A DNA stretch of 64,000 bases from the NCBI GenBank assembly GCA_965203275.1, contig OZ241865.1:1120001-1184000 (forward strand), given 5' to 3'. This stretch comes from Bdellovibrionales bacterium. GTDB lineage: Bacteria > Bdellovibrionota > Bdellovibrionia > Bdellovibrionales > JAUICD01. The translations under genes were made by a program, and so were the position numbers. Positions 1,235-64,000 of this stretch are shown in pieces (position 1 is the first letter of the stretch; each line of letters begins with the position of its first letter). The notes beneath the pieces are model-generated. The model did no database searches. It was not told the origin of the DNA and saw only the letters and a list, made by a program, of their open reading frames with translations.

Positions 1235-3457
1235 TTAATGAATATAAGCTTGATAGATGGGTTGATTGTTGACTAAAAAGCAAATCTGCTTTGTTTTTTT
1301 GCCATTCTTCTCTTCAAGAATGTCTACCACAACAGCTTGACCATCCTTCAAATGGTCTTTCAACAGAGCTTCTGCTAAATGTGTTTCTAAATGCCTCTGC
1401 AAAAATCTTTTTAATGGCCTTGCTCCATATACAGGATCATAAGATAACTCTACAATGCCTTTGCAAGCCTGCTTTGTTAAAGTCAAATGAATCTTTCTAT
1501 CCTTTAAGCGGTTGGCTATTCGCTGAACCTGTAGGTTGGCTATTTGCAAAAGATTGTCTTTGCTCAATGGTGAGAACATCACTATTTCATCTACCCTGTT
1601 TAAAAATTCTGGACGGAAAAATTCTTTTAACTCTTTGATCATTAACTCTTTTGTTTCTTCTTTGATACTAGAGAGGTCTTGTGATGCTGGGTCTTCTAAG
1701 TCTTTCAGGATATGGGAAGCTCCTATATTAGAGGTCATAATTAAAACTGTGTTTTTAAAATCCACTGTTCGCCCTTTAGAATCTGTCAATCGACCGTCAT
1801 CTAAAATTTGCAATAAAATATGAAAAACATCAGGATGAGCTTTTTCAACTTCATCTAACAAGATCACAGTGTAAGGTTTACGTCGAATGGCTTCTGTAAG
1901 CTGTCCTCCTTCTTCAAAACCAATGTATCCAGGGGGAGCTCCAATCAAACGGCTGACAGCGTGTTTTTCCATATATTCACTCATATCTAAACGCAAAATA
2001 TTATTTTCACTATCAAACAGGGCTTCTGCTAATGCTTTTGCTAACTCTGTCTTACCTACACCTGTTGGTCCTAAAAATAGAAAAGAGCCGATCGGCTTTT
2101 GAGGATCTTTAATACCTGCTCTAGCTCTTAAAATGCTATCACATACCCATTTAACAGCTTCATGTTGTCCAATCACACGCTCATGTAATTCATCTGATAA
2201 ATGTAATAGCTTTTCTTTTTCTCCTTTTAAAAGGCGAGACAAAGGGATACCTGTCCACTTAGAAATAATATCATGGATTTCTTGATCTGTGACAGCTTCT
2301 GATAAAAGCTTGTGAGAATTAAATGCTTTTTCTAGTTGAGCTTCCTCTTGAGCTAAAGTTTTTTCTAACTCTGGTAGTCGCCCTAACTTAAGGGCTGCCA
2401 TCTTTTCTAAATTATATTCTCTTTCGTATCTTTCAATTTCATGCTTGACTGATTCTATTTCTTTTCGAATAGATCGCAGTTTTTGTACAGCTTGTTTTTC
2501 TTGCTCCCATTGTTTTTTCATTTGAATAGAAGACTTTTTTGATTTTTCTAATTCTTCTTTGACTTGCTTTAGTTTTTCTTTACTGGATGCATCTGTTTCT
2601 TTTTTTAAAGCTGTCTCTTCAATCTCTAGCTGCAAAATTCTACGGGTGATTTGATCTAGCTCTGAAGGCATGGAATCTAACTCTGTACGAATCATTGCAC
2701 AGGCTTCATCCACAAGGTCAATGCCTTTATCTGGCAAAAAGCGATCGTTAATGTATCTGTCTGATAACACAGCCGCAGAAACCAATGCAGAATCATGGAT
2801 GCGAACCCCGTGATGTAGTTCAAATCTTTCTTTTAACCCTCGCAAAATAGATATTGTGTCATCTACAGTAGGAGGCTCTACCAATACAGGCTGGAAGCGA
2901 CGTTCTAAAGCCACGTCTTTTTCTATGTACTTTCTGTACTCATCTAAAGTTGTTGCTCCGATACAATGTAGCTCTCCTCTGGCCAACAAGGGCTTTAATA
3001 TTTGCCCTGCATCCATAGCTCCTTCTGTCTGGCCAGCACCCACAATTGTATGTAGTTCATCAATGAAAAGTAAAATACGTCCATTTGATTTTTTGATTTC
3101 AGATAGCACAGCTTTAAGACGTTCTTCAAACTCCCCTCGGAATTTTGCTCCTGCTAAAAGTGAAGCCATGTCTAAAGCAAAAATACTTTTCTCTTTTAAA
3201 CCATCAGGCACGTCTCCTTTGACAATTCTTTGAGCTAAGCTTTCTGCAATCGCTGTTTTACCCACGCCAGGCTCTCCAATGAGGACAGGATTGTTTTTAG
3301 TTTTACGAGATAAAATGCGAATCACTCGACGGATTTCAGAATCTCTACCAATCACAGGATCTAATTGACCTGTTTTAGCAATCTCAACTAAGTCTCTGCC
3401 ATACTTTTCAAGATGTGTTTGATGAGCATTTGGATTATGAGATTGTGAATAGGTCAT
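1235..3457 (-). CDS. clpB: ClpB AAA+ disaggregase lacking the N-terminal Clp repeat domain
   Basis: Two AAA modules (GEPGVGKT / [18 protein letters not shown] / LLDEVEKAH) and a long coiled-coil M domain. RBS AAGGAG precedes the ATG. Confidence 0.93.
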
Positions 3458-15600: not shown

Positions 15601-15838
15601 ACTAGCTTACTTTTAGTGAAACAAACTAGCTGAAATCACTTAATTTCTAATTTTCAAACCTAAATTCCTTACCTTTCCAAAGAAATCCAGAGAAACAAAC
15701 TTTTTCCTTAACATCTCACTCAAAATGCATCATGCCTCTGGCAGGCTTTTGAGACAGTTAGCCTTTGATCGACGGCGAGAGCCGTCGGGCTAACTGTCCA
15801 AAAGTAGCCAGAGGCTAGACCACTTTTAGTGAAACAAA
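15601..15838 (+). repeat. Structured palindromic repeat element, left flank of the rpn gene
   Basis: Long imperfect hairpin at 15716..15832; 15601..15727 is similar to 61331..61463. Confidence 0.85.
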
Positions 15839-15843
15839 TGTGT

Positions 15844-15872
15844 TTGACATTCCATCAAGATATGTTTATTCT
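15844..15872 (+). promoter_or_regulatory. Sigma70 promoter; predicted start near ATG 15880 (leaderless mRNA)
   Basis: TTGACA-17 nt-TATTCT, ending 7 nt before the ATG. Confidence 0.55.
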
Positions 15873-15879
15873 ATGCAAA

Positions 15880-17040
15880 ATGAATCAAGTGAAACAAAAT
15901 CATCTTAAGAATCAAGCTCAAAAAGAAGAGCAACAAGCTATTTCTCAAGCTCATGTCCATGACCTGTCTTTCAAAAGGTTTTTTGATAGTGTAGAGAACA
16001 TATTAGCCTTTTTAAACCTTGCTTTTTCTCAGGCATTTCTAAACCTTTTTAACCTTGACTCACTCAAAATAGAAAAGAATGTTTTAATAGCAGGTATAGA
16101 AATGCAAATAGACCTTCTCATTTCATTAACCCTTAAAAACTCTCAAAAAACAGTCAGATTTATCTTTCTTTTAGAACACAAAAGCTGGCCAGACCATAAT
16201 GTCTTAAAACAATTATTAAAATATCAGGCTACAGTCTATGAAAAATATGGCTATCCAGTAATTCCTATTGTTTTTTATCACGGGATGAAAAAATGGACAG
16301 TGCCTATTTCTTTCCATGATTACTTAGAATCTCAAGGTTATTTTCCTGATCATTCTCGCAGTCTTATTGCTCCTTACCTTATGAATTTTTCTTATGTGCC
16401 ATTTGATCTATCGGTTTATGATATAGAAGCGAAGGCAAAAGGTTCAATGATCAGCCCTATTTTGCATTTATTTCAGGGTATTTGGTCTTTAGATAGTAGA
16501 AAAAGTACAAAGGAACAGCATGATTTTTTCATAAAATTTTTTTCATTTGTGAAAAAAGTGTCGCAAAGTACCGATAAAAAGTATATAATAGAACTCATCA
16601 CTAAAGCGATGACTTATTTTTATCAGTACAATAATCAGTTAAGTAAAGAAGTTGTTCAATCAGCTTCAAAAGAAGTGACTCAACAATTAGGAGGAGAAAA
16701 TATTATGGAAGCATTTGATTTTACCATAGAAGGAACTATGAAAAAAGGCATTCAGATTGGCCGAGAAGAAGGCATTCAGATTGGCCAAGAGAAAGGCATT
16801 CAGATTGGCCGAGAGAAAGGCATTCAGATTGGCCAAGAGAAAGGCAGAGAAGAAGGTAGGCAAGAAGGTAGGCAAGAAGGTAGGCAAGAAGGTAGGCAAG
16901 AAGGCAGAGAAGAAGGTAGGCAAGATATTATCTTAAATATGCTTAAAAATAACATGGATATTTCGATCATTGCAAAAATCACAGAGTCCACAGAGAACAA
17001 AATACGAGAAATACAGAAAAAACTAAACAACTTGGGCTAA
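15880..17040 (+). CDS. Rpn/YhgA-like PD-(D/E)XK nuclease (Transposase_31 family)
   Basis: HDLSFKRFF, IDLL, LLEHKS, VIPIVFYHG motifs; C-terminal GREEG/GRQEG repeats and a terminal HTH-like tail. Confidence 0.9.
   Translation: MNQVKQNHLKNQAQKEEQQAISQAHVHDLSFKRFFDSVENILAFLNLAFSQAFLNLFNLDSLKIEKNVLIAGIEMQIDLLISLTLKNSQKTVRFIFLLEHKSWPDHNVLKQLLKYQATVYEKYGYPVIPIVFYHGMKKWTVPISFHDYLESQGYFPDHSRSLIAPYLMNFSYVPFDLSVYDIEAKAKGSMISPILHLFQGIWSLDSRKSTKEQHDFFIKFFSFVKKVSQSTDKKYIIELITKAMTYFYQYNNQLSKEVVQSASKEVTQQLGGENIMEAFDFTIEGTMKKGIQIGREEGIQIGQEKGIQIGREKGIQIGQEKGREEGRQEGRQEGRQEGRQEGREEGRQDIILNMLKNNMDISIIAKITESTENKIREIQKKLNNLG
16705..17040 (+). CDS. Internal in-frame small ORF (RpnS antitoxin-like, 111 aa)
   Basis: AGGAGGAG at 16689-16696, then 8 nt, then an in-frame ATG at 16705. 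Confidence 0.65.
   Translation: MEAFDFTIEGTMKKGIQIGREEGIQIGQEKGIQIGREKGIQIGQEKGREEGRQEGRQEGRQEGRQEGREEGRQDIILNMLKNNMDISIIAKITESTENKIREIQKKLNNLG
16745..16925 (+). repeat. Coding tandem repeats (24-bp GIQIG(R/Q)E(E/K) and 12-bp GRQE units)
   Basis: aaggcattcagattggcc x4; gaaggtaggcaa x5. Confidence 0.9.
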
Positions 17041-17057
17041 AGATTATTGCATTTTTT

Positions 17058-17556
17058 TCACTCAAAATAAATCATGCCTCTGGCATGTTTTCTGGCAGTT
17101 AGCCCGACGGCTGTCGCCGTCGGGCTAACTGTCCAAAAGTAGCCAGAGGCTAGTTCAATTTTAGGGAAACAGAGGCTGGTTTATTTTTAGTGAAAAAGAT
17201 AAGAAGGCGGTAGCCTTCGGCTGGCAACCAGAAAGTAGCCAGAGGCTAGACCACTTTTAGTGAAACAACTCCTTAACATGGAGTAAAAAAACGAGGAGAT
17301 CCTCATGACTCAAAGTGAACAGGCTTTCTAGGCGATGACCATTTTATCGATGGCGAAAGCCTTTGCAGGGCAACAAGTGTAAGAAGGAACTTTTTCCTTA
17401 ACATGGTGTTAAGAAATGAGGACATCCTTCTTCCTAAAATTGAACAAGCTTTTGAGGCGGTTAGCCTTTGATCGACGGCGGTAGCCGTCGGGCTAACTGC
17501 CCAAAAGTAGCCAGAGGCTAGTTCAATTTTAGGGAAAAAGACCACTTTTAGTGAAA
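17058..17556 (+). repeat. Mosaic cluster of structured palindromic repeats, right flank of the rpn gene
   Basis: About four full or partial units carrying GC-GNNA-GC hairpins and AGTAGCCAGAGGCTAG. Confidence 0.88.
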
Positions 17557-30546: not shown

Positions 30547-30615
30547 TTCACTAAAAGTAAAGTGACCAGAGGTCAGACCACTTTTAGTGAAACAAAGCAC
30601 TTTGAGTGAAACAAC
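30547..30615 (+). repeat. Internally deleted copy of the structured repeat
   Basis: TTCACTAAAAGT..TGACC-AGA-GGTCA-GACCACTTTTAGTGAA. Confidence 0.75.
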
Positions 30616-46761: not shown

Positions 46762-47295
46762 ATGAGTGATGATGATTTTCCAAGCAATGGACCTACAAAA
46801 GAAAATGGCAATCCTTTAAAAGAATACTTTAAAGGAATTTTACCTTTCTTGCTACTGATTCTGAAAGAAATCAAGTCTAACTGGCCTTTATATTCAATAA
46901 TTTTGTTTGTGTGTTTTATCTTTCCACCACAAGACTACGGTTCTATTTCAACCATTATAGGTATTCTCTATATTCTTTTTAATGTTAAACTTATAACTCC
47001 AATAAAAAGTGAGATAAAAGAAATTAAAAAAGATGTTGAGAATACTAATAATGAGATAAAAGAAATTAAAAAAGATGTTGAGAATACTAATAATGAGATA
47101 AAAGAAATTAAAAAAGATGTTGAGAATACTAATAATGAGATAAAAGAAATTAAAAAAAATGTTGAGGATACTAATAATGAAATAAAAGAATTAAAGAGTA
47201 GTATTGATAAAAAATTTGAAGATGTAAGTATTGCTATCAAAGAGATAAATAATAACGATAAGTTTAAAAACAAGACGAATTCAAGTGATAATTAA
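46762..47295 (+). CDS. TM plus coiled-coil protein with 14-aa tandem repeats
   Basis: EIKEIKKDVENTNN x4 (42-bp units at ~47011-47190); hydrophobic N-terminal half. Confidence 0.75.
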   Translation: MSDDDFPSNGPTKENGNPLKEYFKGILPFLLLILKEIKSNWPLYSIILFVCFIFPPQDYGSISTIIGILYILFNVKLITPIKSEIKEIKKDVENTNNEIKEIKKDVENTNNEIKEIKKDVENTNNEIKEIKKNVEDTNNEIKELKSSIDKKFEDVSIAIKEINNNDKFKNKTNSSDN

Positions 47296-49100: not shown

Positions 49101-49823
49101 ATGAAAAAATATATATTTGTCCTATTTATAATCTTGCTTGTTTCTAGTGATTCTCTATCTATGGGCCTATTGAGGACTTGTACTGAAGTCCTTATGCCAA
49201 ATTCAAAACAAAAAGTTATTGAGAGAGAATTATTGAAGCTAAATAATAGGTTATTAAATATTGTTTATACCGGTGAATCCCTTGTTCATGCCGGTGGCCG
49301 TATTAGATTGATAAAGAAAGTGCTAGAGGCTGGAGCTAACGTCAATTATCAAGACGACTATGGCTGGACGGCTTTAATGTTGGCTAGTGAGAATGGCTAT
49401 ATTGAAGCTGTAAGGGCATTGCTAGAGGCCGGAGCTAACGTCAATCTTCAAAACAAAAAAAGTCGCTATACGGCTTTAATGTTGGCTAGCCGTAAAGGCC
49501 ATATAGAAACTGTAAGGGCATTGCTAGCTTATGGAGCTAACGTCAATCATCAAGACAGATTTGGCAGTACGGCTTTAATTTGGGCTAGTTATGACGGCCC
49601 TATAGAAATTGTAAGGCTATTGCTAGCTTATGGAGCTAACGTCAATCATCAAGACAAAAAAGGCAGGACGGCTTTATATTATGCTGGTCGAGGTTATTTT
49701 GAAATTGCAATTGAAAGACTCTTAATCTCTCTTGACTTCATTCATTCTAGCATTCGTTCTCGTAGTCGAGAAGATTCTATCGAAATTGAAAGACTATTAA
49801 GAGAGGCCGGAGCTACAGAATAA
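49101..49823 (+). CDS. Secreted ankyrin-repeat protein
   Basis: Signal peptide; about four near-identical GANVN(H/Y)QD..G.TAL repeats. Confidence 0.92.
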   Translation: MKKYIFVLFIILLVSSDSLSMGLLRTCTEVLMPNSKQKVIERELLKLNNRLLNIVYTGESLVHAGGRIRLIKKVLEAGANVNYQDDYGWTALMLASENGYIEAVRALLEAGANVNLQNKKSRYTALMLASRKGHIETVRALLAYGANVNHQDRFGSTALIWASYDGPIEIVRLLLAYGANVNHQDKKGRTALYYAGRGYFEIAIERLLISLDFIHSSIRSRSREDSIEIERLLREAGATE

Positions 49824-57003: not shown

Positions 57004-57138
57004 ATTTTGACCATCCTCTTGATTATTTTAGCATTTTTTATTGTTATGTCTAGTATATCTTATTTTTTTGTTATTTTAAGCATATTAATATTTTAGTGCC
57101 TGTTTTCTGTATTGCCAGAATACCTTTTTCTTTAAAAT

Positions 57139-57224
57139 TTCACTCAAAATGCATCATGCCTCTGGCATGTTTTTGGGCGTTTGTCTCACTAAAAATAAAC
57201 CAGCCTCTGACCACTTTGAGTGAA
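57139..57224 (-). repeat. Partial copy of the structured repeat
   Basis: TTCACTCAAAATGCATCATGCCTCTGGCATG..., as at 15716 and 17058. Confidence 0.8.
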
Positions 57225-57355
57225 TAAGGTAGGCTTTGACCTTGTCTCTTGAGTTTGTAAGCCAATAGTTTGCCTTGACGTTGATACTCTATAATAAGCT
57301 ACATATTGTTTGATATTTTCCATCAAGTATATTTTTGATTTTTAACAATTGAATA

Positions 57356-58564
57356 TCAAGGTTTAGATTTCATAAAGTCTTTAAGTTTTTGTATTGGTAG
57401 TTCTATTATTGTCTTTATCTCATCCCCTTTGTCTTTGAGGGGTCCATCCTCCGTAATGAAGGCTTTTGAATAAACACATAATGGCAAAAATAAGTCATCA
57501 TTCCTTTGATTCTCTTTACTGTGAATAAAACTGCCATGGCTTACTTTATCTATATGCTCTTGTTTGAGATCATTATAATATCTTATAGATGCATACGTTT
57601 TTAAAAATGGATATTTAAATTCTTTTCTAATATCTCTGTCAAATTGTTCTTTTAGAGCGTCAATTTTTTGTTGAGAAAGACCATGAAATTCTTTATCCTG
57701 CCCTCCGATTTCTTTTTTTATATATTGTACCTTTTTTGATATATCACTTAATTTTTTTTGTGTCATGGTTGTTTTAAGTAGTTTTTCCATTTCTTCTATC
57801 GTAAGATTTGTGTTGAGCAAATCATCTTCTTTATTTTCTATAAGAGTTAATTGTATTAATTTTTTATATATAATCCATTCTAAATATACAAAATGAAAAT
57901 GAAAGTATTTGGCTTTGAGATGGTTATATCCATTTTCTTTAAAATCTTTGTATATTTCATCGTTTTTTTCTCTCTGTTTTTTTGTTTTAGAATATAACTT
58001 GTCTATATTCTCTTTTTTTTCTTCAGGAGAAACACCAAAGATATCTAGTATATCCTTAGAAGAGAACTTTGGATTTATTTTATTATCCAATTCAATTAAG
58101 CTTTCCCTAGAACGTTTTAGATCTTTTAAAAAAATATTCATGACATAATCTGAATAGACTGGAATGCTTTCTATAATCCCATCACCATCAATTTCTTTTT
58201 TTATAAAAAAGCGATTATCTGGTAAGAATTTTAATTGTATTTTTTCCATCATTTCTTTGATAATCTCTAATCTTTCTATGCTTGATTCTTCCTTCTTGCA
58301 TTTCAGGCCTGCTATTTCTGATAACACCTGATAGGCTATAAAGACTATACCACTGCTTTCTTTTACTTTCTTACAAAAAGGGTCCATTTGTTTTTGATCT
58401 TTTTGAAATACATTTATTATATTGGTATCTATTAAAATCATCTTTGAATTGCCCTCTTGATCTCTAAAATTTATATTCATTTTCCACTTCCTTTCTTTGT
58501 TAATTAATTGATTAAATAACTCTTTTAAAAGAAGATACAAACGAAGAAAGTTTAATTTTTTCAT
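57356..58564 (-). CDS. PIN-domain-like hypothetical protein (start possibly 58480)
   Basis: ILIDTNI, VLSEI and C-terminal NDDL..AFITED acidic motifs fit a PIN fold with a large helical insert. Confidence 0.55.
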   Translation of the reverse strand: MKKLNFLRLYLLLKELFNQLINKERKWKMNINFRDQEGNSKMILIDTNIINVFQKDQKQMDPFCKKVKESSGIVFIAYQVLSEIAGLKCKKEESSIERLEIIKEMMEKIQLKFLPDNRFFIKKEIDGDGIIESIPVYSDYVMNIFLKDLKRSRESLIELDNKINPKFSSKDILDIFGVSPEEKKENIDKLYSKTKKQREKNDEIYKDFKENGYNHLKAKYFHFHFVYLEWIIYKKLIQLTLIENKEDDLLNTNLTIEEMEKLLKTTMTQKKLSDISKKVQYIKKEIGGQDKEFHGLSQQKIDALKEQFDRDIRKEFKYPFLKTYASIRYYNDLKQEHIDKVSHGSFIHSKENQRNDDLFLPLCVYSKAFITEDGPLKDKGDEIKTIIELPIQKLKDFMKSKP

Positions 58565-58651
58565 ATCTTTCTATTAATATATCAGAGACTAGAATACCTA
58601 ATAAAATTTTTAGAAAATCACTATTCCAATTGTTTCTTAACACAACATATC

Positions 58652-58786
58652 AAAAGACAAAAGAGACCACAAGTGGCCTCTTTTGTCTAAATACATAGAA
58701 AAGATTTAGTGTCGTATCTACAGAAATTAATACATACCAACAGTAGAAATTAAATATAGTATCTCATCTTATTCGGATAAAATTAA
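58652..58786 (-). ncRNA. Second crRNA-like module (interrupted Cas12a-type handle) with promoter and terminator
   Basis: Promoter region homologous to 48340-48394; AATTTCTACTGTTG + 16 nt + GTAGAT; terminator GACAAAAGAGGCCAC-TT-GTGGTCTCTTTTGTC. Confidence 0.55.
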
Positions 58787-59046
58787 TCCTTAGGTTTCTT
58801 ATCCTGTTTGGTTAATTGATTCGATAGATGTTGTGCGAATAAGGTTACTATCTCTTTATAGTTTTTATTGTTTTCCTCTGACAATTTATCCACTTTATTC
58901 TCAATCTTACTGATTTTATTCTCAAGCTTACTGATTTGTGTCGGTAAATGATTAGATACTTGATAAATTAAATAAATAACTAAAGGAAAAATTATCGTGG
59001 AGCTATGTTCTAAAAACAAAGTATATAAGAGACTTGCTGTTGTCAT
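58783..59046 (-). CDS. Small TM plus coiled-coil protein (NHLPTQI family)
   Basis: RBS AAGGAGG; TM helix; NHLPTQISKLENKISKIENK. Confidence 0.75.
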   Translation of the reverse strand: MTTASLLYTLFLEHSSTIIFPLVIYLIYQVSNHLPTQISKLENKISKIENKVDKLSEENNKNYKEIVTLFAQHLSNQLTKQDKKPKD

Positions 59047-59570
59047 TTTGTCCTCCTTATTTTATTATCCATAGTTTATTTTTTATTTATGAATTGTTTC
59101 GATGATGACTGGTCTAAAGAGCATGCCTATTTACTAGTCGGAGTCTTATATCATAAACTTTAGAAAAAAGATAGAAGTTGTTATTTAAGTGTCTCTAAAA
59201 GAGACAATAAAAAACATAAAGATTTTATAAAATCCACAATAAATCCACTTTTAAAGCTTAAACCTTGACGGGTTGCATCATTTATTGACCAAACACCACA
59301 ATCAAAATAAAATAATTCCTTTAACCAAATAGAGAGGTTGCTAAATTTTCAAAAATAGATAGATGCTGGAGCAAGATAGTAAACCCACCACTTATATTAA
59401 ATTCCATTTAAGCATCACCAAACCCTGCAAAAAGTGACTTTTGATCTCAAAATGCCTGGAATAGAATTAGGAATGTGCTACACCAAACAGTTGGAGTTAA
59501 GACTGCATCCTCGCTAGATGCTTTGTGAGGGACTCCATCCACTTTTTTATAGCTTTTCTTAAAGAAAAAA

Positions 59571-59660
59571 CAAAAGGGCCGTGAGACCCTTTTGTAAATG
59601 AAACGTTAATTAAGATTTATAAAAAGAACATAAGGGCCGTAGCAAACGGCCTTTATGCTC
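59571..59660 (-). terminator. Tandem hairpins downstream of the pilin gene
   Basis: CATAAGGGCCGT-AGCAA-ACGGCCTTTATG and CAAAAGGG..CCCTTTTG. Confidence 0.6.
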
Positions 59661-59697
59661 ATCATGCCTAAACTTTAAAATTAAAAGATTATGTTTC

Positions 59698-60390
59698 TTA
59701 CCATTGGTGTTTTTCTTTCAATTCCTTTGCTTGGTCGATGGTGATAACGCTTTCCTCTCCACCAATAAACCCATAGGCCTGGACTCTAAAATCACCGCCT
59801 GTTGTTGGAGGTGCCGGTTCCAAATCAGTATCTGTTGGAGCAGGACTAAACTCAAAGTCAGCAAGTGCAGTGGCTATATCTGGCAATGCTCCAGAATCAG
59901 TTGCTTGGTTACCTGAATAAGCATCACTGGCTATCTGAAAGTTATCACCAATGCTTCCATAATCTGTCCATACCCCTGTTCCTGTACATGAGGCTACTTG
60001 AGTTCCTTCACAATCGCTTTCAGAAGAAGTAGCACATCCAGTACCACCTAAACCAGTACACACACCTCCATTACTGGCATTGGCTTTTATGTCCTTCAAA
60101 TCACCTTCACCAGCACCGCTGTCAAAACCTAAGTTGTATCTTACAGCACCTTCTGGTCTCATTCCTGTAGCCGCTACATTGCTCATAGCAACCGGTGCAA
60201 CATTAGCCACCTTAAAGTGCTTATAATAAGCCGATGCCATCACCTTGCCTTCTGTAGCTTTGGCATCCAATTGGAATCGTCGATATTGTGGAATAGCCAC
60301 AGCGGCCAGAATTCCAATAATAGCTACGACGACCATTAATTCAATTAAACTAAAACCTTTTTGATTCTTTAAAAATATTGAGTTTTTCAT
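59698..60390 (-). CDS. pilA: Type IV pilin (PilA-like)
   Basis: [26 protein letters not shown] prepilin motif; RBS GGAGG before ATG 60390. Confidence 0.88.
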
Positions 60391-60565
60391 AATAACCTCC
60401 ACGGTTTAAAATAATTCAATGCAATGGACAAGCACCTTTTACTTATCCTTCTTTACTCTTTAGTTAGGCTTGTTTGTATCTCCCAGATGCTTATTCCACC
60501 TAACCTTTCCTTCCTCCTCTTTACTTAACCGGGATCCGGTAAACCGGCAGTCCGGCATCAGAAAG

Positions 60566-60716
60566 AAATTTTTCCTTAACATCGTGTTAAGAAACGAAGG
60601 GATCCTTCTACTAAAAGTGGTCAGGCTTTCTAGGTTGCCAGCATTTGAGAAGGCGATAGCCTTCGGCTGGCAACCAGAAAGTAGCCAGAGGCTAGACCAC
60701 TTTTAGTGAAACAAAC
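60566..60716 (+). repeat. Full copy of the structured repeat
   Basis: All stems present; GATA loop. Confidence 0.88.
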
Positions 60717-60740
60717 CTAAACGACCTAGTGATTTCAAGG

Positions 60741-61120
60741 ACTTAGCACTGTGACTTTTGTATAAAAGTCACAATTTGAAAGAGTAAAAAACAGGCAAAT
60801 TTTTGCAAGAAAATTGTTTTGAAAAATAAAACAAAACAAAAGTTATAAAACGCGAATTAAAAATGACTACTTATTTTTCTGATCTTATGTTTTTAAGATT
60901 AGTAAAGTGTTTCAAGATGATACAAAAATTCAAAAAAGTGATTCTTTTTGATACAAAATGTCACTTTTTTTGATTTTTTTTAACAAAAATATAAAGTTTT
61001 ATGTCATAATAAACGATAAGAATTGTGTTAGACGAAAAATTAGAAATTTCTAAAGTCGACCTAAAAAAGTCTAACAATTACAAACACTTAATACTGTAAC
61101 TTTTATACAAAAGTCACAAT
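60741..61120. promoter_or_regulatory. Pair of 24-bp palindromic operator-like sites
   Basis: TGTGACTTTTGTATAAAAGTCACA (~60750) and TGTAACTTTTATACAAAAGTCACA (~61095). Confidence 0.5.
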
Positions 61121-61124
61121 ATTA

Positions 61125-61440
61125 AGTTACTAGAATCACTGGATTTCCAATTTTCAAATACCCTTTTCCCCATCTTTTAGAAAATACAGAGAAATGAACT
61201 TCTTGTTTCCTTAACATGGTGTTAAGAGACAAGGAGATCCTTTCTACTAAAAGTAAACGGACTTTTGAGGTGATGACCATTTTATCGATGGCGAAAGCCA
61301 TCGTGGTCATCACCCAAAAGTAGCCAGAGGCTAGTTTACTTTTAGTGAAACAAGACTTATTGGAATCACTGGATTTCCAATTTTCAAACCTAATTCCTCC
61401 CATTTTTTAGAAAAATATACAGAGAAACAAATATCTTGTT
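61125..61440 (+). repeat. Structured repeat copy with duplicated AT-rich flank
   Basis: Unit at ~61200-61350; GAATCACTGGATTTCCAATTTTCAAA occurs twice. Confidence 0.85.
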
Positions 61441-62280
61441 TCCTTAATATCTCACTCAAAATGAGCCACACCTCTGGTGTGTTTTTGGGCATTGCTCTGA
61501 CAGCTATCGCTGTCTAAAAAGAGCAATGCCTCAAAAATCCGCTCATTTTGAGTAGAGCGGATCTCCTTGCTTCTGACACCATGTTAAGGAAACAAGGTAT
61601 GCTTTTAAAATGTTTTTAAGGAGCATGCGAGTTGCGATAAAGGAACTTTTTCCTTAACATTTCACTCAAAATGAGCCACACCTCTGGTGTGTTTTTGGGC
61701 ATTGCTCTGACAGCTATCGCTGTCCAAAAAGAGCAATGCCTCAAAAATCCGCTCATTTTGAGTAGAGCGGATCTCCTTGCTTCTGACACCATGTTAAGGA
61801 AACAAGGTATGCTTTTAAAATGTTTTTAGGGAGCATGCGAGTTGCGATAAAGGAACTTTTTCCTTAACATTTCACTCAAAATGAGCCACACCTCTGGTGT
61901 GTTTTTGGGCATTGCTCTGACAGCTATCGCTGTCCAAAAAGAGCAATGCCTCAAAAATCCGCTCATTTTGAGTAGAGCGGATCTCCTTGCTTCTGACACC
62001 ATGTTAAGGAAACAAGGTATGCTTTTAAAATGTTTTTAGGGAGCATGCGAGTTGCGATAAAGGAACTTTTTCCTTAACATTTCACTCAAAATGAGCCACA
62101 CCTCTGGTGTGTTTTTGGGCATTGCTCTGACAGCTATCGCTGTCCAAAAAGAGCAATGCCTCAAAAATCCGCTCATTTTGAGTAGAGCGGATCTCCTTGC
62201 TTCTGACACCATGTTAAGGAAACAAGGTATGCTTTTAAAATGTTTTTAGGGAGCATGCGAGTTGCGATAAAGGAACTTTA
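61441..62280 (-). repeat. Four near-identical 210-bp tandem repeats, each containing an inverted structured unit
   Basis: Units start at 61441, 61651, 61861 and 62071 and differ at only a few bases. Confidence 0.95.
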
Positions 62281-62292
62281 TGTTAAAAGAGG

Positions 62293-62819
62293 AAAGGATC
62301 CTTTCTACTAAAAGTGGTCAAGCTTTCTAGGCAATGACCATTTTGTCAAAGGCGAAAGCCTTTGCAGGCAACACTCAAAGTGTAAGAAGGAACTTTTTCC
62401 TTAACATGTAGTAAAAAAACGAGGGGATCCTTTCTACTAAAAGTGGTCAAGCTTTCTAGGCAATGACCATTTTGTCAATGGCGAAAGCCATTGCGGTCAT
62501 TGCCAGAAAGTAGCCAACACCAAAGTGAAACAAAAGGAAATCTTTTTCCTTAACATCGTGTAAAGAGACGAAGGGATCCTCATTACTAAAAGTAAACGGA
62601 CTTTTGAGACGATGACCATTTTGTCAAAGGCGAAAGCCTTTGCAGGCAACACTCAAAGTGTAAGAAGGAACTTTTTCCTTAACATGTAGTAAAAAAACGA
62701 GGGGATCCTTTCTACTAAAAGTGGTCAAGCTTTCTAGGCAATGACCATTTTGTCAATGGCGAAAGCCATTGCGGTCATTGCCAGAAAGTAGCCAGAGGCT
62801 AGACCACTTTTAGTGAAAA
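62293..62819 (+). repeat. ~278-bp duplication made of partial and full structured units
   Basis: ATGACCATTTTGTCAAAGGCGAAAGCCTTTG at 62334 and 62612. Confidence 0.9.
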
Positions 62820-62934
62820 TAAAGTAATGTGAAAATTTCTTTGATCTCTCTTATAAAAAGCGATATAAGTAAATAAATATCGTGTTGAAAAACTAACTTT
62901 TTCAAACAAAAAACTGCAAACTAAGGAGGGTCTT

Positions 62935-63681
62935 TTGATTTTTTCTGTTATCAATCAAAAAGGAGGAGTCGCTAAGACAACCACTGCTTTAAATATAGCA
63001 GCTACTTGGGCTAAAAACAAAATCAAGGTTTTACTCATTGATGTTGATCCTCAATCTTCAGCTACAAAAGCTATTTTTGGAGACTGTGAATTTGAAAAAA
63101 CCATTTATGATGTCTTGATCAACAAACTACCTCCTGAAGAAGCCATTGTTTCTTCAAAACAATTTGGTTTTGATGTCATTCCTTCAGAGATTATGCTGTC
63201 TGGATTGGACATTCAAATTGCAGCTCATTTTGGTAGAGAAAGGCTTTTAAAAAAAAGACTCGATTTAATTAAAAGAAAATATCAAGCCATTATTATAGAT
63301 TGTCCTCCTAGCTTAGGCCTGATCACTGTCAATGCTTTGATGGCTTCTCGTGATATTATTATACCTATTTGTCCTGAGTATTTTTCTGCAAAAGGTATTG
63401 ATCTTATACTAGAAACTGTCAATAATTTGAGGGCAGGTTTAGGGCATAAATTAGGAGTGAAGGGCATTGTGATCACAAGATATAAAGAGAGAAAAATTTC
63501 TACGAAGATTATACAACAAATAGAAAAAAAATATGGACTGAAAGTTTTTAAAGATTATATCCCTGATGCTATTGCTGTGGAAGAAGCACATCATGCTCAC
63601 ATGCCGATGATTAATTATTTGCCTCATCATAAAGCAACTCGAGCTTACCATAAATTATCAAAGGAGATTTGGTCACAATGA
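62935..63681 (+). CDS. ParA/Soj family ATPase
   Basis: NQKGGVAKTTT, DVDPQ and IIDCPPSLG motifs; RBS AAGGAGG with a TTG start. Confidence 0.93.
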   Translation: MIFSVINQKGGVAKTTTALNIAATWAKNKIKVLLIDVDPQSSATKAIFGDCEFEKTIYDVLINKLPPEEAIVSSKQFGFDVIPSEIMLSGLDIQIAAHFGRERLLKKRLDLIKRKYQAIIIDCPPSLGLITVNALMASRDIIIPICPEYFSAKGIDLILETVNNLRAGLGHKLGVKGIVITRYKERKISTKIIQQIEKKYGLKVFKDYIPDAIAVEEAHHAHMPMINYLPHHKATRAYHKLSKEIWSQ

Positions 63682-64000
63682 CTCATAATCCTCTCTTTGT
63701 TGATTCTACAAAATTCCGCGGTGAAATGATCATGGCAGACCTAGAAGTGCATGGTGTCGACTTGTTAGAAGGTGAAAGTCTTTATACAAAGGTGATTTTA
63801 AAGGATGGTAGAAGTTATTTAGTCAACTTAACCTCTCAATCAAATTACTATAAAGGGAGTATTCGTTTAGCATATCAAGAAAATGTAAGCTTTCAACATT
63901 TCATTATGAGAGGGGAGCAAACTGTAGCTAAAACCCAAGAAGAAAAACTTGCTGTCAATTATATCAATAAGTTTAGCCCTAAAGAGTTAGCCTTTCATCA
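63678..64000 (+). CDS. Hypothetical protein, runs off the window
   Basis: ATGA overlap with the parA stop; the frame is open to the end (MTHNPLFVDSTKFRGE...). Not recognisably ParB. Confidence 0.6.
   Translation, partial: MTHNPLFVDSTKFRGEMIMADLEVHGVDLLEGESLYTKVILKDGRSYLVNLTSQSNYYKGSIRLAYQENVSFQHFIMRGEQTVAKTQEEKLAVNYINKFSPKELAFH

What the first reader, a model, noticed from the sequence alone, without database searches (positions are those of the whole stretch)
60566..62819. Novel branched repeat family with compensatory changes in every stem
Copies at ~15716, 17058-17556, 30547, 57139, 60600, 61240, 61450-62280 and 62293-62819 share one fold while their sequence differs. P1: ACTAAAAGTGGTC/GACCACTTTTAGT, ACTAAAAGTAAAC/GTTTACTTTTAGT, CCTAAAATTGAAC/GTTCAATTTTAGG, ACTCAAAATGAGC/GCTCATTTTGAGT. 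P2: CTTTCT/AGAAAG or CTTTTG/CAAAAG, followed by a bulged A. P3: GGCAATGACC, GGTGATGACC, GGTTGCCAGC or GGCATTGCTC, each with its complement. A T-rich internal loop leads to an apical GC-GNNA-GC hairpin, and a side hairpin has an invariant CC-AGA-GG core with covarying outer pairs. Structure, not sequence, appears to be under selection. It is more elaborate than classical REPs and I do not recognise the family.
Basis: seen in the sequence. Interest (0 to 1): 0.87.

Follow-up and report, generated by a model that had tools for sequence, protein, structure and literature searches.

The report
Abundant branched hairpin DNA repeat family
This is a real, very abundant family of about 160-base DNA repeats that fold into a three-armed hairpin and fill about 7% of an uncultured bacterium's genome; it behaves like selfish REP-type DNA rather than an RNA gene, and it sits unusually often beside "Rpn" nuclease genes.

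Summary
The same element occurs at 1218 loci in the 2.57 Mb genome (773 near full length, about 6.7% of the DNA). Every stem shows compensatory changes: 94.9% of cells paired, and 30 of 38 pairs changed on both sides, a value reached by 0 of 500 shuffles.

It is best read as a modular, REP/BIME/REPIN-like selfish DNA element, not an RNA gene:
- It lies in both orientations and 87% of copies are intergenic.
- Copies cluster in head-to-tail arrays and head-to-head doublets.
- Stems are Watson-Crick on both strands (G-T 204 versus A-C 164 mismatches).
- Rfam has no match.

It is not a RAYT system: the genome has no Y1 transposase. It is not a classical MITE either: I found no target duplication, only 69 of 690 copies have matching ends, and no parent IS turned up.

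The family is confined to this genome, a same-genus genome and one sister-genus genome among 41 relatives searched.

New here: Rpn-like PD-(D/E)XK nuclease genes (Transposase_31 and PDDEXK_2, about 40 copies) adjoin the repeats far more often than other genes do (36 of 43 versus 318 of 1815). This makes them a candidate partner, but that link is unproven.

The scan had already found this family in two other windows of the same genome.

The parts
60572..60716 (+). Full element: 5' module (TTCCTTAACAT...GGATCC), 98-nt three-way-junction core at 60611-60708, and 3' tail GTGAAACAA
   Evidence: nhmmer hit over hmm 1-101, score 79.5; 5' module edge; sequence
60520..60560 (.). CCGG/GGATCC-rich simple motif that often precedes 5' modules
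   Evidence: Sequence. The same motif lies beside several repeat clusters. GGATCC occurs 1223 times against 254 expected.
61207..61355 (+). Full element (P1 ACTAAAAGTAAAC, P3 GGTGATGACC)
   Evidence: nhmmer hit over hmm 1-101, score 91.8
61439..62279 (-). Tandem array of four 210-bp units. Each unit is a complete reverse-strand element bounded by TTTCCTTAACAT ... ATGTTAAGGAAA, plus a spacer (S) of about 55 nt.
   Evidence: TRF: period 210, 4.0 copies, 99% matches; four cores at 61453-62182; S spacer shared with head-to-head doublets elsewhere
62293..62823 (+). Head-to-tail array of four elements: three truncated (cores 62308-62378, 62437-62516, 62586-62656) and one full (62715-62815). It includes a 278-bp two-unit duplication.
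   Evidence: (D10, 92% identity)
15704..15841 (+). Chimeric copy. The left half has the reverse-type P1 arm and side hairpin; the right half is forward type. It abuts the start of an Rpn-like gene.
15829..17040 (+). Rpn-like nuclease gene (Transposase_31, PF04754; TIGR01784). Inverted repeat copies bracket it, with their 3' ends facing the gene.
   Evidence: Pfam E 4.2e-24; NCBIfam; flanks at -2 and +19 nt
17059..17542 (.). Cluster of copies: a full core on the minus strand (17059-17164), 26-nt tandem 3'-end fragments (17144-17199), two partial copies, and a full plus-strand element (17394-17542)
30558..30597 (+). Remnant copy keeping only the side hairpin, the P1 3' arm and the tail
   Evidence: nhmmer hit over hmm 70-101; sequence in family D4
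57124..57237 (-). Degenerate reverse-strand copy between two genes
   Evidence: family D5 reference copy; nhmmer hit over hmm 48-101

Best explanation
This is a family of selfish, modular, palindromic DNA repeats of the REP/BIME/REPIN kind. The functional form is a folded single strand or cruciform of DNA, not an RNA.

Anatomy. Each unit of about 160 nt has three parts:
- a 5' module,
- a 101-nt core that folds into a three-way junction (P1; P2-P3-P4 with a GNNA-type apical loop; side hairpin P5 with an invariant CCAGAGG),
- a short tail.

Inferred mechanism. The invariant motifs are TTCCTTAACAT, GGATCC, ACT-AAA, CCAGAGG and TTTAGTGAAAC. I take them to be contact points for a trans-acting protein encoded elsewhere in the genome. 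The variable stems only need to pair. Copies multiply next to and between existing copies, giving head-to-tail arrays and head-to-head doublets. They also exchange modules by recombination, which gives mosaic copies. Stem complementarity would be kept up in two ways: only well-folded copies are copied, and mismatched arms are corrected against each other by template switching.

Shown: abundance, fold, covariation, DNA-like symmetry, clustering rules, clade restriction, and the absence of a RAYT or parent IS.

Inferred: the single-stranded intermediate, the trans-acting enzyme, and the correction mechanism. The best candidate enzyme is an Rpn-like PD-(D/E)XK nuclease (see the novel case).
For: Abundance:
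- 1218 non-overlapping loci, 773 near full length, on both strands (631 + / 587 -).
- 171,744 bases, 6.7% of the genome.
- 17-48 full copies in every 100-kb bin.

Intergenic and clustered:
- 1061 of 1218 loci lie outside crude ORF calls, which cover 77% of the genome.
- 343 intergenic regions hold 764 full copies.

No consistent orientation to genes over all copies: ++ regions 108 versus 72, -- regions 95 versus 103.

Fold and covariation. P1 pairs lying 78-94 columns apart rank among the top 45 mutual-information pairs.

DNA-like symmetry: of 19,025 stem cells, 18,145 are Watson-Crick, 204 G-T, 164 A-C and 512 other.

Mosaic structure:
- About 8 self-complementary P1 types are combined with about 10 P3 types.
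- Normalised mutual information between paired arms (P1L-P1R 0.71, P3L-P3R 0.79) exceeds that between P1 and the nested P3 (0.54-0.60).

Ordered arrays: adjacent full copies are ++ 150, -- 127, -+ 88 and +- 19. Of the -+ pairs, 36 have a 120-145 nt gap holding a conserved spacer.

Maintenance of pairing (459 nearest-neighbour pairs):
- 156 changes fall in 17 unpaired columns, against 287 changed columns among 86 paired columns.
- 22 isolated double changes are all Watson-Crick to Watson-Crick, against 3.3 +/- 1.7 expected (maximum 10 in 1000 permutations).

Known families: no Rfam match at gathering score; the best E-value is 0.19.

Precedent: REPINs also show compensatory changes in their hairpins (PMC3116915, passages read).
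Against: - No movement was shown. I found no empty site, excision product or polymorphic insertion; Logan contigs break at the repeats.
- No enzyme is identified.
- There is no target-site duplication. Only A-rich ends recur, so the element's edges are defined by conservation only.
- The copy nearest a gene start points its 3' end at the gene more often than not (171 versus 51 within 250 nt for ordinary genes). This could hint at a transcription-related effect. It is partly geometric, and it also follows from the cluster layout.
- As RNA, the plus-sense strand is predicted to be slightly more stable (mean -52.0 versus -49.5 kcal/mol, more stable in 382 of 428 cores).
Confidence: 0.62

Rival explanations
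1. No dedicated enzyme exists. Copies spread only by replication slippage, unequal crossing-over and ectopic recombination between existing copies. Stem complementarity is a mutational by-product of quasi-palindrome template switching. The link with multi-copy genes arises because repeat-mediated recombination duplicates whatever lies between repeats.
For: - Near-identical tandem arrays occur (210-bp x4 at 99%; a 278-bp duplication at 92%).
- 26-nt tandem duplications of the 3' end occur.
- Copies are mosaic, with break points at helix borders.
- A non-nuclease family (tandem-HTH protein) is also flanked: 10 of 12 members within 120 nt.
- No particular repeat sub-family goes with any gene family.
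- Template switching in quasi-palindromes is an established mutation class (PMC7202029, abstract seen).
Against: - 178 of 392 clusters are single copies, spread evenly over the genome. Local duplication alone does not explain that.
- Invariant loop and junction motifs (CCAGAGG, TTCCTTAACAT) are kept across three genomes while the stems vary. That suggests recognition by a protein.
- Other dispersed multi-copy families are not flanked: IS256-like 1 of 9, 23S-IVP-like 2 of 11, resolvase 0 of 6.
Confidence: 0.2
2. It is a structured RNA family, either a cis-regulatory leader, terminator or RNase III site, or a small RNA. On this reading the fold is selected at the RNA level.
For: - The fold is branched, with a GNNA-type apical loop, and covariation is strong.
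- The plus-sense strand is slightly more stable as RNA.
- The copy nearest a gene start is usually co-directional with the gene.
- The side hairpin followed by a T-run scores as terminator-like: 13 sites against 2.4 in shuffles.
Against: - There is no Rfam match.
- Both orientations occur in all intergenic classes, including convergent ones.
- G-T and A-C mismatches are about equal, 204 versus 164, whereas RNA stems tolerate G-U far better than A-C (the RNA expectation is from general knowledge).
- 1218 copies include many truncated and chimeric ones.
- Promoter-like sites are fewer than in shuffles, 1 versus 5.0.
Confidence: 0.08
3. It is a classical MITE: an internally deleted insertion sequence moved by a DDE transposase that recognises terminal inverted repeats.
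For: - A sub-family has 11-12-nt inverted ends (TTTCCTTAACAT ... ATGTTAAGGAAA). This includes the window's 210-bp array units.
- The genome holds IS256-like (9 copies) and DDE_Tnp_1 (3 copies) transposases.
Against: - Only 69 of 690 full copies carry the inverted right end at the element border, while 644 of 690 carry the left motif.
- No target-site duplication appears in a scan of k = 2-8 over all offsets.
- The ends of the IS256-like and DDE_Tnp_1 elements are unrelated to the repeat's ends.
- These IS genes are not near repeats: 1 of 9 and 0 of 3.
Confidence: 0.06

Closest known systems
REP / REPIN elements with RAYT (TnpA-REP) transposases (Bertels & Rainey 2011, PMC3116915; PMC8266576, abstract only)
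   Same: - High-copy extragenic palindromes.
- Inverted doublets with a spacer.
- Compensatory changes in the hairpin.
- Vertical persistence within one clade.
- Conserved short motifs beside variable stems.
   Different: - The unit is about 160 nt and branched (three-way junction plus an extra 5' hairpin), against REP hairpins of about 20-40 nt (the REP size is recalled).
- Head-to-tail arrays outnumber inverted doublets (277 versus 88).
- The genome has no Y1/RAYT gene.
- The genes that flank the repeats are multi-copy PD-(D/E)XK Rpn-like nucleases, not a single-copy HUH enzyme.
BIMEs of Escherichia coli (bacterial interspersed mosaic elements; recalled, not read here)
   Same: Mosaic combinations of a palindromic unit in alternating orientation with several other conserved short motifs. 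Here these are the core, the 5' module, the S spacer and the GGATCC-rich motif.
   Different: The sequences are unrelated and the core is branched. Coverage is far higher (6.7% of the genome). BIMEs belong to the REP/RAYT world.
BOX elements of Streptococcus pneumoniae (modular boxA-boxB-boxC repeats; recalled, not read here)
   Same: Modular, strongly folding intergenic repeats of 100-200 nt with no known dedicated transposase.
   Different: The sequences are unrelated and the copy number is about ten times higher. No comparison could be run: no BOX sequence or model was available to test against.
Rpn (YhgA-like, PF04754/PF12784/TIGR01784) recombination-promoting nucleases (PMC5350276 passages; PMC10400941 abstract; PMC12445526 and PMC13439711 passages)
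   Same: The genes beside the repeats belong to this family. They are multi-copy in a host-associated genome, as reported for PDDEXK2 genes in Wolbachia and Rickettsia. They carry variable short tandem repeats in the C-terminal part.
   Different: No defined DNA element or end sequence is described for Rpn genes in the passages I read. Here they adjoin one particular structured repeat family.

Membership tests
REP/REPIN-RAYT system | High-copy, extragenic, hairpin-forming palindromic repeats | tested here: met
   1218 loci, 87% intergenic, fold confirmed
REP/REPIN-RAYT system | The replicative unit is an inverted doublet forming a long hairpin | tested here: inconclusive
   Head-to-head pairs number 88, of which 36 have a fixed 120-145 nt gap and a conserved spacer, against 19 tail-to-tail pairs. 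Direct pairs (277) and single copies (178 clusters) are commoner.
REP/REPIN-RAYT system | A cognate Y1 (HUH) RAYT gene flanked by the repeats | tested here: not met
   PF01797 gives 0 matches in this genome, while the control genomes ring. The same-genus genome has one Y1 gene with IS200-like hairpin ends; its nearest repeat is 3.6 kb away. G004 has repeats but no Y1 gene.
MITE (non-autonomous DDE transposon) | Terminal inverted repeats at both ends | tested here: not met
   The left motif is in 644 of 690 copies. The inverted right motif sits at the border in only 69 of 690.
MITE (non-autonomous DDE transposon) | Target-site duplication | tested here: not met
   The k-mer scan over offsets found only the A-runs that are part of the consensus. 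No empty site was available for an exact test.
MITE (non-autonomous DDE transposon) | A parent IS sharing the ends | tested here: not met
   The IS256-like and DDE_Tnp_1 ends are unrelated. Other IS types were not surveyed exhaustively.
Any Rfam RNA family | A covariance-model match at gathering score | tested here: not met
   Only 5S rRNA matches in the window. The best sub-threshold hit in 60400-63000 has E 0.19.
Integron attC sites | Structured recombination sites in one co-oriented array next to intI | not tested
   I ran no intI search. Dispersal over the whole genome in both orientations does not fit an integron array.
Rpn-nuclease-associated repeat (proposed, not an established family) | Rpn-like genes adjoin the repeats more often than other genes do | tested here: met
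   36 of 43 Rpn-like genes or fragments have a core within 120 nt, against 318 of 1815 other genes (odds ratio 24, Fisher p 2e-20). Gene fragments and paralogues are not independent.
Rpn-nuclease-associated repeat (proposed, not an established family) | The association holds in related genomes and is specific (cognate sub-families) | tested here: inconclusive
   - G001: only 5 of 19 Transposase_31 genes lie within 600 nt of a repeat.
- G003: 16 Transposase_31 genes and none of these repeats in about 230 kb sampled or by covariance model. It has a different palindromic family beside 4-5 truncated copies.
- No cognate repeat sub-family exists in G000.

The most novel reading that the evidence does not exclude
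The repeats and the Rpn-like PD-(D/E)XK nucleases (Transposase_31, PDDEXK_2) form a previously unrecognised partnership, analogous to REP-RAYT. The nuclease would recognise and cut the folded three-way-junction DNA at its invariant motifs. Template-switch repair would then copy, shuffle and correct the elements and relocate the nuclease genes themselves. This would give the orphan 'putative transposase' Rpn family its first defined DNA substrate.
Probability: 0.3. Interest if true: 0.85.

Novelty: new variant of a known kind. Interest (0 to 1): 0.62.

Why it matters
One repeat family filling 6.7% of a bacterial genome, with a branched fold kept across three genomes while its stems change, is an unusually clear case of intragenomic selection, or templated correction, acting on DNA structure.

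It shows that REP-like systems can exist without a RAYT.

If the link to Rpn-like nucleases holds, it would bear on a long-open question: what these widespread 'putative transposases' act on. They are common in intracellular symbionts and sit next to Wolbachia cif genes. It would also give a concrete substrate for biochemistry.

Tried and rejected
- **Rfam.** Gathering and permissive searches found nothing.
- **RAYT.** None in G000. The G001 Y1 gene proved to be an ordinary IS200-like gene away from the repeats.
- **Target-site duplication scan.** Only consensus A-runs appeared.
- **Replication-strand bias.** GC skew is weak and irregular, and no orientation bias is visible.
- **Cognate sub-family test.** Flanking repeats are of many types. 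The weak enrichments (p 0.013 to 0.0006, uncorrected) are probably due to duplicated loci.
- **Filled versus empty site from a split Rpn gene.** The difference turned out to be a complex rearrangement, not a clean insertion.
- **Sequencing runs.**
  - No RNA holder is listed.
  - Logan contigs of four runs are short and break at the repeats, so no empty site or junction could be trusted; the many 'joints' have sides of 20-30 nt inside repeats.
- **Pattern scans of public collections.**
  - Among the 1 viral and 12 metagenome single hits plus those two genome-contig hits (15 loci), 2 weak covariance-model matches appeared (19.5-19.7 bits, E about 0.03: one metagenome locus, one genome contigs locus). 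They are most likely chance.
- **G022.** This order-level relative has 14 PDDEXK_2 copies. The copies share a conserved upstream stretch with a small hairpin, but I saw no dispersed repeat in 6 loci. This says nothing either way.
- **Promoter scan.** Nothing above chance.
- **Self-nesting.** In the window's 62293-62819 array the truncated units are not followed by their missing remainders, so I could not confirm nesting there.
Full report
**1. What is there**

The region 60566-62819 lies in a 2.5-kb intergenic gap between a pilin-like gene (59698-60402, minus strand; N_methyl motif) and a ParA-type ATPase gene (62935-63681). It is almost entirely repeat DNA.

An nhmmer profile, started from the core at 60611-60709 and iterated over the window's whole genome, finds 1218 non-overlapping loci. 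The genome is 2,567,810 bp in one contig, 35% G+C. Of those loci, 773 cover nearly the whole 101-position profile, split 631 plus and 587 minus strand. With flanks they cover 171,744 bases, 6.7% of the genome. An independent blastn census gave 860 merged loci and 173,974 bases.

Conservation in the flanks of 690 full copies shows that the unit runs from about -54 to +7 around the core. It comprises a 5' module (A/T run, TTCCTTAACAT, a small hairpin, GGATCC), the core, and the tail GTGAAACAAA. The copies at 61450-62280 are the same unit on the other strand, as four 210-bp tandem units.

**2. The fold and the covariation are real**

So does a run on 42 copies taken from three genomes. The structure has P1 (13 bp) closing a three-way junction, P2-P3-P4 as the long arm with an apical GNNA-type loop, and P5 as a short side hairpin with the loop AGA in an invariant CCAGAGG.

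On alignment A1, 94.9% of 1285 cells are standard pairs, against 77.3% in shuffles and 33-50% when the partners are slid by 1-3 columns. Thirty of 38 pairs have changes on both sides. None of 500 shuffles reaches the observed value on any of the five measures.

On 640 distinct copies of this genome the main pairs switch between A-T and G-C or C-G in hundreds of copies. One example is pair 59-153, with A-T 338 and C-G 244. P1 pairs that lie 78-94 columns apart are among the 45 strongest mutual-information pairs.

The 5' module hairpin pairs in 80% of cells but does not covary.

**3. DNA, not RNA**

- Stems are 95% Watson-Crick, and the two kinds of one-step mismatch are about equal: G-T 204, A-C 164. 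An RNA under selection would tolerate G-U far better than A-C (general knowledge).
- Copies lie in every class of intergenic region, and over all copies show no consistent direction relative to the flanking genes.
- There are many truncated and chimeric copies: 446 partial hits with break points concentrated at helix borders.
- Rfam has no match. Promoter-like sites are not enriched.
- One caveat: the copy nearest a gene start points its 3' end at the gene more often than not, 171 versus 51 within 250 nt for ordinary genes. Part of this is geometry, because the 5' module adds about 54 nt on one side. Part follows from the cluster layout in section 4.

**4. How the copies are arranged**

Full copies form 392 clusters, of which 178 are singles. 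Neighbouring copies are mostly head-to-tail (150 ++ and 127 --), often with the next 5' module starting 6-7 nt after the previous tail.

Inverted neighbours are strongly asymmetric. There are 88 head-to-head pairs (5' modules facing) against 19 tail-to-tail pairs. Thirty-six of the 88 have a 120-145 nt gap that holds a conserved spacer of about 55 nt between two inverted TTCCTTAACAT motifs. The same spacer separates the units of the window's 210-bp array.

The family is therefore modular: core, 5' module, spacer, and a GGATCC/CCGG-rich motif. It recalls the mosaic BIMEs of E. coli (recalled, not read here).

Stems come in discrete, self-complementary types: about 8 for P1 and about 10 for P3. 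These are combined in many ways. Paired arms are more tightly linked than P1 is to the nested P3. So inner hairpins are exchanged as units.

**5. How pairing is kept**

Among 459 nearest-neighbour pairs of copies (at most 4 differences), unpaired columns change 2.8 times as often per column as paired ones. There are 22 isolated double changes, all from one Watson-Crick pair to another, where 3.3 +/- 1.7 are expected; the maximum in 1000 permutations was 10.

This fits selection on the fold at the moment of copying. It fits equally well arm-against-arm correction by template switching in quasi-palindromes, a known mutation class (PMC7202029, abstract seen). I cannot separate the two.

**6. What moves it**

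- It is not a RAYT system. PF01797 finds nothing in this genome, although the control genomes ring. The same-genus genome G001 has one Y1 gene, but it carries IS200-type hairpin ends, and the nearest repeat is 3.6 kb away. G004 has the repeats and no Y1 gene.
- It is not a classical MITE. The inverted right end is present in only 69 of 690 copies. No target duplication shows up. The ends of the two recognisable DDE IS families are unrelated.

**7. The association with Rpn-like nuclease genes**

The window itself shows a Transposase_31 gene (15829-17040) bracketed by inverted copies.

Genome-wide there are 16 PF04754 matches and 14 PF12784 matches. Both kinds hit NCBIfam TIGR01784, 'Rpn family recombination-promoting nuclease/putative transposase'. 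The Transposase_31 genes fall into recent paralogue groups (89-98% amino-acid identity; PDDEXK_2 members cluster at 70% or more). For Transposase_31, the shared DNA ends within tens of bases of the gene, directly against repeat sequence.

Thirty-six of 43 Rpn-like genes or gene fragments have a repeat core within 120 nt, against 318 of 1815 other genes (odds ratio 24, Fisher p 2e-20). True transposase and recombinase families are not flanked: IS256-like 1 of 9, DDE_Tnp_1 0 of 3, resolvase 0 of 6.

Upstream of Transposase_31 genes the repeat's 3' end faces the gene in 18 of 19 cases. Ordinary genes show the same tendency.

Evidence against a specific partnership:
- Fragments of broken genes are counted separately, and paralogues are not independent.
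- A non-nuclease family (a secreted tandem-HTH protein) is flanked as often, 10 of 12.
- No repeat sub-family goes with any gene family.
- In G001 only 5 of 19 Transposase_31 genes lie within 600 nt of a repeat.
- G003 has 16 Transposase_31 genes and none of these repeats.

G003 does have a different palindromic family of about 100 nt, with at least 64 matches. It also has varying self-complementary stems, and copies abut 4-5 truncated Transposase_31 genes.

Earlier notes of this scan report Rpn genes tied to hairpin repeats in unrelated genomes. I treat them as leads only.

In the passages I read, Rpn proteins are Ca-stimulated DNA endonucleases that raise RecA-independent recombination. A template-switch model is discussed, and no defined element is described (PMC5350276). 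PDDEXK2 'transposases' are multi-copy neighbours of cif genes in symbionts, again with no ends described (PMC12445526 and PMC13439711).

**8. Distribution**

A covariance model built from A1 finds the family in this genome, in the same-genus genome G001 and in G004 (11 matches). It finds none in 38 other relatives, including G002 and G003 of the same family. A blastn search gave the same three genomes.

A record of the same genus is titled a Bdellovibrionales MAG. Pattern hits elsewhere (2 genomes, 1 viral contig, 12 metagenome contigs) are single. Only 2 of the 15 gave weak model matches (E about 0.03), so they are most likely chance.

**9. Verdict**

The element is a new, branched and modular variant of the REP/BIME/REPIN kind of selfish DNA, without a RAYT. 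Its mobilising activity is unknown. Rpn-like nucleases are the best candidate, at about 0.3 probability.

The scan had already described this family from two other windows of the same genome. My results agree with those notes. New here are the genome-wide census, the array rules, the DNA-versus-RNA test, the exclusion of RAYT and MITE models, and the Rpn association.

Noticed in passing
window 16744-16925 (inside the Rpn-like gene 15829-17040): The C-terminal part of the nuclease gene holds in-frame tandem repeats of 24 nt (4.3 copies) and 12 nt (6.3 copies). Variable four-residue repeats are reported for E. coli Rpn proteins and their intragenic antitoxins (PMC10400941, abstract only).
   Followed up: no
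G000:C1:1997666-1999798 (L060) and 11 paralogues, outside the window: A 12-member family of 640-910-residue proteins. Each has a signal-peptide-like N-terminus and about ten tandem 44-residue helix-turn-helix repeats. Ten of 12 members lie within 120 nt of a repeat. It may be a secreted DNA-binding effector of this host-associated bacterium.
   Followed up: partly
G003:C1, e.g. 863289-863389 (L045:5290-5390): The sister-genus genome G003 lacks the window's repeat family. It has its own palindromic repeat of about 100 nt (at least 64 matches) with varying self-complementary stems. Several copies abut truncated Transposase_31 genes.
   Followed up: partly
window 60720-61190 and 61357-61414: The AT-rich stretch between repeat copies is itself multi-copy: contig word depth is 2000-3000, against 50-100 over the neighbouring genes. 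It contains a long 19-bp-stem hairpin (61086-61127) and a 58-nt segment repeated at 61127-61184 and 61357-61414.
   Followed up: no
window 57300-63700 (runs X1, X2, X6, X7): The unique flanking genes are found letter-perfect in contigs of runs from two differently coded host organisms. They are found partly, with some diverged pieces, in a sponge metagenome run. The bacterium therefore seems to be associated with more than one host.
   Followed up: no
whole genome G000: GGATCC occurs 1223 times against about 254 expected from base composition. 436 of these lie in or beside repeat units; the rest are largely in CCGG/GGATCC-rich simple motifs next to them.
   Followed up: no
window 47010-47195 and 49331-49676: Two coding tandem repeats: a 42-nt repeat (4.5 copies, 97% matches) in ORF 46762-47295, and 99-nt ankyrin repeats in ORF 49101-49823. 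Both are typical of host-associated bacteria.
   Followed up: no
G001:C1:2743786-2796190: Seven Transposase_31 matches and four PDDEXK_2 matches are packed into about 52 kb of the same-genus genome. This looks like an island of Rpn-like genes.
   Followed up: no
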